This document shows positions 36,371 through 39,300 of a stretch of 64,000 nt of DNA, piece by piece. The DNA lies in NCBI RefSeq assembly GCF_988243305.1, contig NZ_OZ547136.1. The stretch is one strand, 5' to 3'. The position numbers were made by a program. How positions within the stretch are numbered: position 1 is the first letter of the stretch; every line of letters begins with the position of its first letter.

Positions 36371-39300
36371 TTATACATATCACTCTAAAATGTTTTTTCA
36401 ATGTTACCTAAAGCGCGATTCTTTGCTAATATGTTCGATAACGAACATTTGTGAGCTTTAACGAAAGTGAATGAGGGCAGCATGGAAACCAAAGATCTGA
36501 TTGTGATAGGTGGCGGCATCAATGGTGCTGGTATCGCGGCAGACGCCGCTGGACGCGGTTTATCCGTGCTGATGCTGGAGGCGCAGGATCTCGCTTGTGC
36601 GACCTCTTCCGCCAGTTCAAAACTCATTCACGGTGGCCTGCGCTACCTTGAGCACTATGAATTCCGCCTGGTCAGCGAGGCGCTGGCTGAACGTGAAGTG
36701 CTACTGAAAATGGCCCCGCATATCGCCTTCCCGATGCGTTTTCGCCTGCCGCATCGTCCGCATCTGCGCCCGGCGTGGATGATTCGGATTGGTCTGTTTA
36801 TGTACGATCATCTGGGTAAACGCACCAGCCTACCGGGATCAACCGGTTTGCGTTTTGGCGCAAATTCAGTATTAAAACCGGAAATTAAGCGCGGATTCGA
36901 ATATTCCGACTGTTGGGTAGACGACGCTCGTCTGGTACTCGCCAACGCCCAGATGGTGGTGCGTAAAGGCGGTGAAGTGCTTACCCGTACTCGTGCCACT
37001 TCTGCTCGCCGCGAAAACGGCCTGTGGATTGTGGAAGCGGAAGATATCGATACCGGCAAAAAATATAGCTGGCAAGCGCGCGGCCTCGTGAACGCCACCG
37101 GCCCGTGGGTGAAACAGTTCTTCGACGAGGGGATGCATCTGCCTTCGCCTTATGGCATTCGCCTGATCAAAGGCAGCCATATTGTAGTGCCACGCGTACA
37201 TACCCAGAAGCAAGCCTACATTCTGCAAAACGAAGATAAACGTATTGTGTTCGTGATCCCGTGGATGGACGAGTTTTCCATCATCGGCACCACCGATGTG
37301 GAATACAAAGGTGATCCGAAAGCCGTGAAGATTGAAGAGAGTGAAATCAATTACCTGCTGAAAGTGTATAACGTGCACTTTAAAAAACAGCTTAGCCGTG
37401 ACGATATCGTCTGGACCTATTCCGGTGTGCGTCCGCTGTGTGATGATGAGTCCGACTCGCCGCAGGCTATTACCCGTGATTACACTCTTGATATCCATGA
37501 TGAAAACGGCAAAGCACCGCTGCTGTCGGTATTCGGCGGTAAGCTGACCACCTACCGCAAACTGGCTGAGCACGCTCTGGAAAAACTGACGCCGTATTAT
37601 CAGGGTATTGGCCCGGCGTGGACGAAAGAGAGCGTGCTGCCGGGAGGTGCCATTGAAGGCGACCGCGACGATTACGCCGCTCGCCTGCGCCGCCGTTACC
37701 CGTTCCTGACTGAATCGCTGGCACGTCACTACGCGCGCACTTACGGCAGCAACAGCGAACTGCTGCTCGGCAATGCGGGAGCGATAAGCGACCTCGGGGA
37801 AGATTTCGGTCATGAGTTCTACGAAGCGGAACTGAAATATCTGGTCGACCACGAATGGGTCCGCCGCGCCGACGATGCCCTGTGGCGTCGCACAAAACAA
37901 GGCATGTGGCTGAATGCGGATCAACAATCTCGTGTGAGTCAGTGGCTGGTGGAGTATACGCAGCAGAAGTTGTCGCTGGCGTCGTAAATTAACGTAAGGT
38001 GGCCAGGTCAGATTTCAATCTGACCTGAGACTGATGATAAACAAAAAAACTGCCTGATGCGCTACGCTTATCAGGCCTACGTGGTTTATGCAATATATTG
38101 AATTTGCATGATTTTGTAGACCAATAAGACGTTCACGTCGCATCCGGCATGGACAAAGCGCATATACAACCGATAACCAAAGTTGTAATTCCAGAAGTGA
38201 AATACGCCTGATCATGAGCGGGATAGAGAACAGTATCTCCCCAGAAAACTCAGCGTAATAATACAAGCAGCCAGCGCAACCACCGTCGGCCATATCAAGA
38301 ACGGTACAATAATAAAGCCGAGAAATACCACACCTAGCAGCAAAACACCGTGAATTTGTTCATCGCGCTAATTCCTTTCCCTCGAGGGTTATTTCATTGT
38401 GGGATACATCGGCACATAACCCATATTTTCCATCAAACTTTACCCTACCGATGGCTAAAAACGGGCTAATCCGATTCTGCACTGACTCACACATCACTGG
38501 TATTCCACCCGCAAAACAGCCAGGGCATTATAACGACCCGCAGCAGGGCGTCGCCCTGTGGTACTTACAGGGAGAGACAGAAAAGTCACATCTGCCGTCT
38601 GAGCTGACTCAGCCCGGTTTTCAACTAACTTAAATGGCACACCAACATGCGCAGCAAGAGCGTTCAAGTCTACGGATTCCTGTTGGCTATCCATAATCAT
38701 AATGCCAACGTCGGGGTTATCCTCCGCCTGAATAATGCTTTGCCGACCATTAACATCTCTCGTTGATGAAATATTGCCATCAAAAACCAGCGTCATTACG
38801 GCATCAATATCTTTGTTCGTACAGTTTATCGGAATAGTGGTTGCCACTGGAGAAACGCCCGTGGGCTTCACTCCAGCACCAGCCCGACTTAATTCGCTGG
38901 CCCAGACATCCGGCATATTAACGGTAAAACTAGTTCCCTCATTAATTGTGCAACCTTGTGGAACTTCAATATTTAAGTTGCCAATATAAGCATTAAATAC
39001 TGGAATTGGTCCGTGCTCTGTTGGAAACTGGCTGACATACAAAGAAACCAGCAATACGTTATTTATTGATATATCGGATATTATTTTTTTATCAAGTCTG
39101 ATTTTTATATAACCTTCTGTTCCTGAGGCCCAACTTGATGGTTTACTTCTGTCTGCTGGATAATTGGTGCTATAGTTGTCAAAAGGTACTGCCTTATCTG
39201 TCATTGTGCCATTTTTATTATAGAGCTTTACATGTGTCGAGACAGATATTTCATGAGTCAAAGGAATAAATATATCGCTCCCCTGATGATCACCAGACGC

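What the first reader, a model, noticed from the sequence alone, without database searches (positions are those of the whole stretch)
36431..36448. Perfect 18-bp palindrome ATGTTCGATAACGAACAT at the glpD promoter
A perfectly symmetric site sits 34 bp upstream of the glpD start, with the divergent glpEGR operon on the other side. It fits the known GlpR operator arrangement overlapping the glpD promoter.
Basis: partly seen in the sequence, partly recalled or inferred. Interest (0 to 1): 0.25.

Follow-up and report, generated by a model that had tools for sequence, protein, structure and literature searches.

The report
Known GlpR operator at glpD promoter
The near-palindrome sits on the transcription start of the E. 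coli glpD gene and is the long-known main binding site of the glycerol-3-phosphate repressor GlpR, so the finding is right but ordinary.

Summary
The sequence ATGTTCGATAACGAACAT is at 36431-36448, and its last base is 34 nt from the A of the glpD ATG (36482). It is not a perfect palindrome. Only 8 of 9 base pairs are symmetric: 7-bp arms ATGTTCG/CGAACAT around ATAA. That degree of symmetry is not rare here (9 such 18-mers in the window, about 6.4 expected).

The context is what makes it significant:
- The window is E. coli, with glpR-glpG-glpE running divergently from glpD.
- The mapped glpD transcription start (-42 from the ATG, so 36440) falls on the dyad axis. The 20-mer 36430-36449 therefore spans -10 to +10, just after an extended -10 (TGcTAATAT).
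- The 20-mer matches the GlpR consensus as I recall it at 20/20. It is the only hit with 3 or fewer mismatches in 64 kb.
- A weaker site, 36450-36469, follows in exact 20-bp register.
- Both sites are conserved in all 77 Enterobacteriaceae glpD promoters compared.
- Used as a probe, the 20-mer finds clusters of partial matches in the glpFK and glpT-glpA control regions, including two RegulonDB GlpR sites.

Verdict: this is the primary GlpR operator (O_D1), acting by promoter occlusion and relieved by glycerol-3-phosphate. It is already known and of low interest.

Two side leads:
- A conserved GlpR-like box at the glpG 3' end, just upstream of glpR.
- Two conserved candidate sites inside glpD.

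The parts
36430..36449 (.). Primary GlpR operator (O_D1), TATGTTCGATAACGAACATT. It spans -10 to +10 relative to the glpD transcription start.
   Evidence: Sequence. 20/20 to the recalled consensus and the only hit with 3 or fewer mismatches in the window, 0.02 expected. The next best site in the window scores 16/20. A site of at least 16/20 lies at the same place in all 77 orthologous promoters. Mean column conservation is 0.915 against 0.774 for the rest of the intergenic region. The 30-mer covering the -10 and this site is identical in 5323 of 5426 E. coli genomes.
36450..36469 (.). Second, weaker operator in tandem 20-bp register (O_D2 candidate), TGTGAGCTTTAACGAAAGTG, at +11 to +30.
   Evidence: 13/20 to the consensus, which is the top 0.13% of window positions. 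It scores 14/20 in K-12, which has A instead of G at 36451. The core TGAGCT.TAACGAAAG is conserved at 90% or more across 78 sequences, with mean conservation 0.91.
36440..36440 (+). glpD transcription start (+1), giving a 42-nt 5' UTR.
   Evidence: The PMC2760140 table lists glpD p1 at -42, both from RegulonDB (Ye 1988, Yang 1996) and from the authors' own mapping. 36482 - 42 = 36440. The K-12 sequence is identical here.
36424..36432 (+). Extended -10 element TGcTAATAT (hexamer TAATAT at 36427-36432, which is -13 to -8). Its last bases overlap the left edge of the operator.
   Evidence: Read from the sequence relative to the mapped start (inference). TGCTA is invariant in 78 sequences. The generic promoter scan reported nothing because the -35 is weak.
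36404..36409 (+). Weak -35-like hexamer TTACCT (3/6), 17 bp upstream of the -10.
   Evidence: Inferred from spacing. It lies in the conserved block AATGTTACCTAA.
36369..36384 (.). CRP-like site TGTTAtacataTCACT centred at -63.5, between the divergent glpD and glpE promoters.
   Evidence: A 2-mismatch match to TGTGAN6TCACA. Such matches are not rare in the window: 23 found, 27 expected. This one is almost invariant in 78 sequences. Assigning it to CRP is inference plus my recollection of the glpD literature.
36482..37987 (+). glpD, aerobic glycerol-3-phosphate dehydrogenase; the regulated gene.
   Evidence: RefSeq annotation. NCBIfam NF008899, 836 bits.
34316..35074 (-). glpR, the DeoR-family glycerol-3-phosphate regulon repressor that binds the operator.
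   Evidence: NCBIfam equivalog NF008154, 552.8 bits against a cutoff of 331, full length. Annotation.
35091..36292 (-). glpG (35091-35921) and glpE (35966-36292), the first two genes of the divergent glpEGR operon.
   Evidence: NF008155 at 527 bits and NF001195 at 203 bits. Annotation.
36845..36905 (.). Two candidate auxiliary operators inside glpD, 41 bp apart: 36845-36864 GGTTTGCGTTTTGGCGCAAA (+406 to +425) and 36886-36905 TAAGCGCGGATTCGAATATT (+447 to +466). Tentative.
   Evidence: They score 11/20 and 13/20 to the consensus. They coincide with the 2nd and 3rd highest third-codon-position conservation windows of the whole gene, 0.907 and 0.903 against a mean of 0.699. Codon or protein constraint is not excluded.

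Best explanation
The site is the primary operator (O_D1) of the E. coli glpD promoter for GlpR, the DeoR-family repressor encoded about 1.4 kb away in the divergent glpEGR operon.

Proposed mechanism:
- A GlpR dimer, or half of a tetramer, binds the two inverted half-sites ATGTTCG and CGAACAT.
- The dyad lies on the transcription start, so the bound 20 bp covers -10 to +10 and abuts the extended -10 element. RNA polymerase is therefore excluded, or open-complex formation is blocked.
- A second, weaker site immediately downstream (+11 to +30), in the same 20-bp register, allows cooperative tandem binding.
- Glycerol-3-phosphate binding to GlpR lowers its DNA affinity and derepresses glpD.
- CRP at -63.5 supplies activation.

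Shown here: the sequence, its position relative to the mapped start, the motif match, the tandem partner, deep conservation, recurrence of the motif at other glp control regions, and the presence of glpR.

Inferred or taken from the literature: physical binding, cooperativity, the occlusion mechanism and induction by glycerol-3-phosphate.
For: - **Locus identity:** E. coli glpEGR/glpD.
- **Position:** transcription start at -42 from the ATG, so 36440, which is the dyad centre (PMC2760140). The K-12 sequence is identical over the site.
- **Motif:** 20/20 to WATGTTCGWTAWCGAACATW; unique in 64 kb, 0.02 expected; next best 16/20.
- **Tandem site:** 13/20 in exact 20-bp register, conserved.
- **Conservation:** all 77 orthologous glpD promoters from more than 25 Enterobacteriaceae genera carry a site of at least 16/20 whose 20-mer ends 31-35 nt before the start codon. 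The right arm CGAACATT (+3 to +10), which no promoter element requires, is nearly invariant.
- **Regulon consistency:** the window's own 20-mer used as a probe is enriched in the glpFK control region (3 of 6 hits at 13 or more, in 4.7% of the locus, P=0.002) and in the glpT-glpA intergenic region (3 of 8 hits, in 3.0%, P=0.0014). The hits often lie 20 or 40 bp apart. They include the two RegulonDB GlpR sites printed in PMC7804116 Supplementary Table 1.
- **Literature:** glpD is repressed by GlpR through multiple footprinted sites, and glycerol-3-phosphate releases GlpR (PMC4117983, PMC7567609, PMC9306846).
Against: - No binding data could be read directly, because the footprinting papers are not held.
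- The consensus used is from my memory, although avoids it.
- The symmetry by itself is not statistically unusual.
- In most other genera the left arm is ATGAGCG or ATGCTCG, so the palindrome is less symmetric there, at 7/9 pairs in the most common form.
- Part of the left-arm conservation could come from the overlapping -10 element and start site.
Confidence: 0.93

Rival explanations
1. The conservation reflects core-promoter function only (the -10, discriminator, start site and initially transcribed sequence). The palindromic appearance is incidental and no repressor binds.
For: The left edge overlaps the -10 hexamer and the dyad is on the start site. 18-mers this symmetric occur at chance frequency in the window.
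Against: The most invariant part is the right arm CGAACATT at +3 to +10, plus a second conserved block at +13 to +29. Neither is a promoter element. The same half-site motif recurs in the glpFK and glpT-glpA control regions. The literature states that glpD is GlpR-repressed through footprinted operators.
Confidence: 0.03
2. The site is bound mainly by another DeoR-family paralogue (such as DeoR, AgaR or SrlR), or by some other regulator, rather than by GlpR.
For: E. coli has many DeoR-family paralogues, and GlpR scores weakly against their models. From memory, the deo operator TGTTAGAATTCTAACA resembles the glp operator.
Against: The motif clusters specifically at the other glp operons. The cognate glpR is adjacent and syntenic. 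By my count from the recalled deo operator, the 16-bp core differs from it at 5 of 16 positions. From memory of Zeng et al. 1996, a GlpR variant carrying the DeoR recognition helix bound neither operator, which indicates that specificity is tight.
Confidence: 0.03
3. The inverted repeat acts as an RNA hairpin in the glpD leader, as an attenuator or stability element.
For: As RNA, the 31-nt stretch folds into a 7-bp hairpin of -6.6 kcal/mol, z = -2.5.
Against: Transcription starts at the centre of the repeat, so the mRNA holds only the right arm. The real leader, 36440-36500, folds no better than shuffles, z = +1.6. Changes in the left arm across species are not compensated in the right arm.
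Confidence: 0.01

Closest known systems
GlpR operators O_D1/O_D2 of E. coli K-12 glpD (Ye & Larson 1988, J Bacteriol 170:4209; Yang & Larson 1996, J Bacteriol 178:7090)
   Same: The sequence is identical to K-12 over the site. The position relative to the -42 transcription start is the same. The tandem 20-bp arrangement covers the -10 region to about +30, which agrees with my recollection of the 1996 abstract.
   Different: There is no difference in O_D1. The window strain has G instead of A at 36451, the second base of the O_D2 candidate. That allele is in the minority.
GlpR operators of glpFK (O1-O4) and of glpTQ/glpACB
   Same: They share the half-site family (ATGTTCG / CGAACAT and variants), occur as clusters of several sites, and are spaced at multiples of 20 bp. 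Two of them are RegulonDB sites.
   Different: Those sites match the glpD 20-mer at only 12-14 of 20 positions. The glpD site is by far the closest to a symmetric consensus.
DeoR operators of the deoCABD operon (DeoR family)
   Same: Both are inverted repeats beginning TGTT...AACA, bound by a roughly 250-aa sugar-phosphate-responsive repressor with an N-terminal HTH. Both systems use several operators and cooperative or looping repression (from memory).
   Different: The inner half-site bases differ (TGTTAGAA against TGTTCGAT), and so do the repressor and the inducer (deoxyribose-5-phosphate against glycerol-3-phosphate). I did not test this here.
lac O1 with auxiliary operators
   Same: In both, the primary operator is centred near the transcription start and repression by occlusion is strengthened by auxiliary sites, some inside the structural gene.
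   Different: The repressor family is unrelated (LacI/GalR). The resemblance is in mechanism only.

Membership tests
GlpR (DeoR-family) operator of the E. coli glp regulon | 20-bp hyphenated inverted repeat matching the glp operator consensus (half-site WATGTTCGWT). | tested here: met
   20/20, unique in the window, 0.02 expected; next best 16/20. The consensus string is from memory, and I found no paper in the library that prints it.
GlpR (DeoR-family) operator of the E. coli glp regulon | The same motif recurs in the control regions of the other GlpR-regulated operons. | tested here: met
   The window's own 20-mer as probe gave 3 of 6 hits at 13 or more in the glpFK control region (P=0.002) and 3 of 8 in the glpT-glpA region (P=0.0014). 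The hits include the two RegulonDB GlpR sites from PMC7804116.
GlpR (DeoR-family) operator of the E. coli glp regulon | It overlaps the core promoter or transcription start of a glp operon. | tested here: met
   The start at -42 gives 36440, which is the dyad centre. The site spans -10 to +10 and abuts the extended -10.
GlpR (DeoR-family) operator of the E. coli glp regulon | Tandem or multiple operators in 20-bp register, allowing cooperative binding. | tested here: met
   The adjacent site 36450-36469 scores 13/20 (14/20 in K-12) and is conserved. Cooperativity itself was not tested.
GlpR (DeoR-family) operator of the E. coli glp regulon | The cognate repressor is encoded in the genome. | tested here: met
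   glpR at 34316-35074 matches NF008154 at 552.8 bits against a cutoff of 331.
GlpR (DeoR-family) operator of the E. coli glp regulon | Physical protection by purified GlpR (DNase I footprint), released by glycerol-3-phosphate. | not testable with these tools
   Reported by Ye & Larson 1988 and Yang & Larson 1996, as cited in PMC7567609 and PMC2760140. The primary texts are not held.
GlpR (DeoR-family) operator of the E. coli glp regulon | Evolutionary constraint on the site in orthologous promoters. | tested here: met
   77 of 77 orthologous promoters carry a site of at least 16/20 at the same offset. Conservation is 0.915 against 0.774 for the intergenic background.

The most novel reading that the evidence does not exclude
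The glpD/glpEGR locus may hold GlpR sites beyond the textbook promoter pair.

The main candidate is a GlpR-like box at the 3' end of glpG: 35092-35111, TATTTTCGTTTTCGCGCATT. It scores 16/20 in E. coli and up to 18/20 in other genera. In E. coli its near edge lies 17 nt from the glpR ATG. It is conserved at synonymous codon positions across Enterobacteriaceae.

If GlpR binds it, the box could mediate glpR autoregulation. It could also loop to O_D1, 1.35 kb away, as an upstream counterpart of the intragenic auxiliary operators. As far as I recall, RegulonDB lists no GlpR site for glpR and glpEGR was reported not to be GlpR-regulated, so a functional site there would revise that picture.
Probability: 0.2. 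Interest if true: 0.35.

Novelty: already known. Interest (0 to 1): 0.08.

Why it matters
It matters little beyond correct annotation. The site is the primary operator that keeps aerobic glycerol-3-phosphate dehydrogenase off until glycerol-3-phosphate appears, and this has been a textbook repressor-operator pair since 1988.

The modest added value here:
- A correction: the site is 8/9 symmetric, not perfect.
- A phylogenetic footprint showing that both tandem operators are conserved across Enterobacteriaceae.
- The observation that Escherichia, Salmonella and some Citrobacter carry the most consensus-like version.
- Two leads on possible extra GlpR sites, at the glpG 3' end and inside glpD.

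Tried and rejected
- **Primary papers.** Look-ups by PubMed id and by PMC id for Ye & Larson 1988, Yang & Larson 1996, Zhao et al. 1994 and Zeng et al. 1996 all failed because the papers are not held.
- **Full-text sequence searches.** Searching for the operator sequence and for consensus strings returned only unrelated primer hits.
- **Other papers.** Those read for glpD operator positions gave general statements only. The exception was the transcription-start table in PMC2760140.
- **Promoter and terminator scan.** It found nothing in 36250-36520, because the -35 is too weak for its rule. The promoter elements were therefore placed from the mapped start.
- **Remembered internal operator coordinates.** I recalled +568 to +587 and +609 to +628, which would be 37007-37067. 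That stretch shows no good motif match and only ordinary third-position conservation. I do not assert those coordinates. Two sites with the same 41-bp spacing but 162 bp further upstream fit better.
- **RNA hairpin reading.** Rejected because transcription starts in the middle of the repeat.
- **Chance palindrome reading.** Rejected on conservation and motif grounds, although the symmetry statistic alone would not reject it.

Full report
**1. The observation**

The string ATGTTCGATAACGAACAT is at 36431-36448. Its reverse complement is ATGTTCGTTATCGAACAT. Positions 8 and 11 are therefore A opposite A, and the site is symmetric at 8 of 9 pairs, not perfect. It is best described as 7-bp arms ATGTTCG/CGAACAT around ATAA.

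The window holds 9 18-mers with at most one mismatched pair. Mononucleotide shuffles give 6.4 +/- 2.3. The symmetry alone is therefore not evidence of anything.

The annotated glpD start codon is the ATG at 36482. The ORF listing extends the frame to a GTG at 36467, but RefSeq uses the ATG, and 72 of the 77 orthologues have ATG at the aligned position (the other 5 have GTG).

**2. Locus identity**

A 1-kb stretch around the site is 100% identical to several E. coli chromosomes, for example strain 042, and is present in 5425 of 5426 complete E. coli genomes. On the minus strand lie:
- glpR, 34316-35074 (NCBIfam equivalog NF008154, 552.8 bits);
- glpG, 35091-35921;
- glpE, 35966-36292.

On the plus strand lies glpD, 36482-37987 (NF008899, 836 bits). 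The divergent glpEGR/glpD arrangement is confirmed.

**3. Position relative to the promoter**

The table in PMC2760140 lists the glpD p1 start at -42 from the start codon. It gives this both from RegulonDB (Ye 1988, Yang 1996) and from the authors' own genome-wide mapping. That places +1 at 36440, the first base of the right half of the repeat, so the dyad axis (36439|36440) coincides with the transcription start.

The K-12 sequence is identical over this stretch, so the K-12 mapping transfers. Upstream lie:
- TGcTAATAT (36424-36432), an extended -10 element;
- a weak -35-like TTACCT (36404-36409);
- TGTTAtacataTCACT (36369-36384), centred at -63.5, which looks like a CRP site.

These three assignments are my reading of the sequence. 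The generic promoter scan found nothing because its rule needs a stronger -35. The 20-mer 36430-36449 thus spans -10 to +10, the classical position for repression by occlusion.

**4. Motif**

The glp operator consensus as I recall it is WATGTTCGWTAWCGAACATW (from memory of Zhao et al. 1994; the paper is not held). It matches 36430-36449 at 20 of 20 positions.
- It is the only site in the 64-kb window with 3 or fewer mismatches, against 0.02 expected.
- The next best sites score 16/20.
- The next 20 bp, 36450-36469 (TGTGAGCTTTAACGAAAGTG), score 13/20, the top 0.13% of window positions, in exact tandem register.
- In K-12 that second site is TATGAGC..., scoring 14/20 by my hand count against the recalled consensus, because of a single SNP at 36451.

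**5. A test that does not depend on my memory**

I used the window's own 20-mer as a probe against 9-kb regions of K-12 around glpFK and glpTQ/glpABC.
- Hits with at least 13 of 20 matches were concentrated in the control regions. For glpFK, 3 of 6 hits fell in 4.7% of the sequence (P=0.002). For glpT-glpA, 3 of 8 hits fell in 3.0% (P=0.0014).
- Several hits lie 20 or 40 bp apart.
- Two of them are the RegulonDB GlpR sites printed in Supplementary Table 1 of PMC7804116.

The glpD site therefore belongs to the same motif family as accepted GlpR sites, and it is the most consensus-like member.

**6. Conservation**

A scan of one genome per species with GlpD returned 80 Enterobacteriaceae loci at 85-98% protein identity.
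- All 77 usable promoters carry a site of at least 16/20 whose 20-mer ends 31-35 nt before the start codon.
- Mean column conservation is 0.915 for the first operator and 0.91 for the second, against 0.774 for the rest of the intergenic region.
- The right arm CGAACATT is nearly invariant. The left arm varies between ATGTTCG (Escherichia, Salmonella, some Citrobacter), ATGCTCG and ATGAGCG (most other genera). Many genera have the fully symmetric centre GATATC.
- The changes are not compensatory. That fits a protein-binding site and argues against a nucleic-acid hairpin.
- Within E. coli, the 30-mer covering the -10 and the first operator is identical in 5323 of 5426 genomes.

**7. Mechanism**

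The papers I could read establish three points:
- glpD is negatively controlled by GlpR.
- The known glp operons each have multiple footprinted GlpR sites.
- Glycerol-3-phosphate binds GlpR and releases it from its operators.

Taken with the geometry above, the best explanation is that GlpR binds the two half-sites across the transcription start, cooperates with the adjacent weaker site, and occludes RNA polymerase until glycerol-3-phosphate accumulates. The sequence-level statements are shown here. Binding, cooperativity and occlusion are inferred or come from literature that I could cite but not read.

**8. Rivals**

- **Promoter-only conservation.** This does not explain the invariant +3 to +10 and +13 to +29 blocks, or the recurrence of the motif at other glp operons.
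- **Another DeoR-family protein.** Not excluded by computation, but disfavoured by the regulon-specific clustering and the adjacent cognate gene.
- **An RNA hairpin.** As RNA the repeat could form a 7-bp stem of -6.6 kcal/mol. Transcription begins in its middle, however, and the real leader folds no better than shuffles.

**9. Comparison with what is known, and novelty**

This is O_D1 of glpD, described in 1988, and it is already known. Only the word 'perfect' needs correcting. Interest is low.

**10. Side observations**

(a) *A GlpR-like box at the glpG 3' end.* 35092-35111 (TATTTTCGTTTTCGCGCATT, 16/20) covers the last six codons of glpG, with its first base inside the stop codon. Its near edge lies 17 nt from the glpR ATG.
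- Most orthologues have a version scoring 15 to 18 of 20, typically TATGTTCGTTTTCGCACATT.
- The box stays attached to the glpG end even where extra DNA separates glpG from glpR.
- The third-codon-position conservation of those six codons ranks 3rd of 272 windows in glpG.
- As far as I recall, no GlpR site is catalogued there, and glpEGR was reported not to be GlpR-regulated. It remains an unresolved lead.

(b) *Two candidate sites inside glpD.* 36845-36864 and 36886-36905 lie 41 bp apart. They combine partial motif matches (11/20 and 13/20) with the 2nd and 3rd highest synonymous conservation of the gene.
- I remember the reported internal operators O_D3 and O_D4 as also being 41 bp apart.
- The coordinates I remember (+568 and +609) point to 37007-37067, where nothing stands out.
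- I cannot tell whether my memory or the numbering origin is off.

(c) *A minority SNP.* The window strain carries the minority allele G at 36451. Its 61-mer is identical in 409 genomes, against 3528 for the K-12 allele. That position varies freely among genera.

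Noticed in passing
window 35092-35111: A GlpR-operator-like inverted repeat, TATTTTCGTTTTCGCGCATT (16/20 to the consensus, joint second best in the window). 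It covers the last six codons of glpG (NARKRK, with two rare CGA codons), and its near edge lies 17 nt from the glpR ATG. Most Enterobacteriaceae have a version scoring 15 to 18 of 20. It stays at the glpG end where insertions separate glpG from glpR. Third-codon-position conservation ranks 3rd of 272 windows in glpG. It may be a glpR autoregulatory or looping operator; whether GlpR binds it is unknown.
   Followed up: partly
window 36845-36864 and 36886-36905: Two partial GlpR-motif matches inside glpD, 41 bp apart (+406 and +447 from the start). They coincide with the 2nd and 3rd strongest synonymous-site conservation in the gene. They may be the intragenic auxiliary operators reported in 1996, but the coordinates I remember (+568/+609) do not match.
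   Followed up: partly
window 36793-36814: Another stretch inside glpD (CTGTTTATGTACGATCATCTG, +355 to +375) with high third-position conservation (0.864) and a 13/20 motif match at 36793-36812. Unexplained.
   Followed up: no
window 36451: A SNP in the second-operator candidate: G here, A in K-12. It lowers the consensus match from 14/20 to 13/20. The window's 61-mer allele is identical in 409 complete E. coli genomes and the K-12 allele in 3528. The position varies among genera, so the change is probably neutral.
   Followed up: partly
window 36369-36384: A CRP-like site, TGTTAtacataTCACT, centred at -63.5 of glpD between the divergent promoters. It is almost invariant in 78 Enterobacteriaceae sequences. 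Other conserved intergenic blocks, 36388-36411 (AAATGTTTTTTCAATGTTACCTAA), contain two more AATGTT repeats that overlap the -35 region.
   Followed up: partly
L008, L010, L014, L020, L052, L055, L074 (glpG-glpR spacer): In Salmonella, several Citrobacter and Klebsiella pneumoniae, the short glpG-glpR spacer is expanded by 50-100 bp inserts rich in GCCGGATAAGG-type repeats, which look like REP elements.
   Followed up: no
window 62339-62356: The only truly perfect 18-bp palindrome in the window, ATTGTCCGGCCGGACAAT. Not examined.
   Followed up: no
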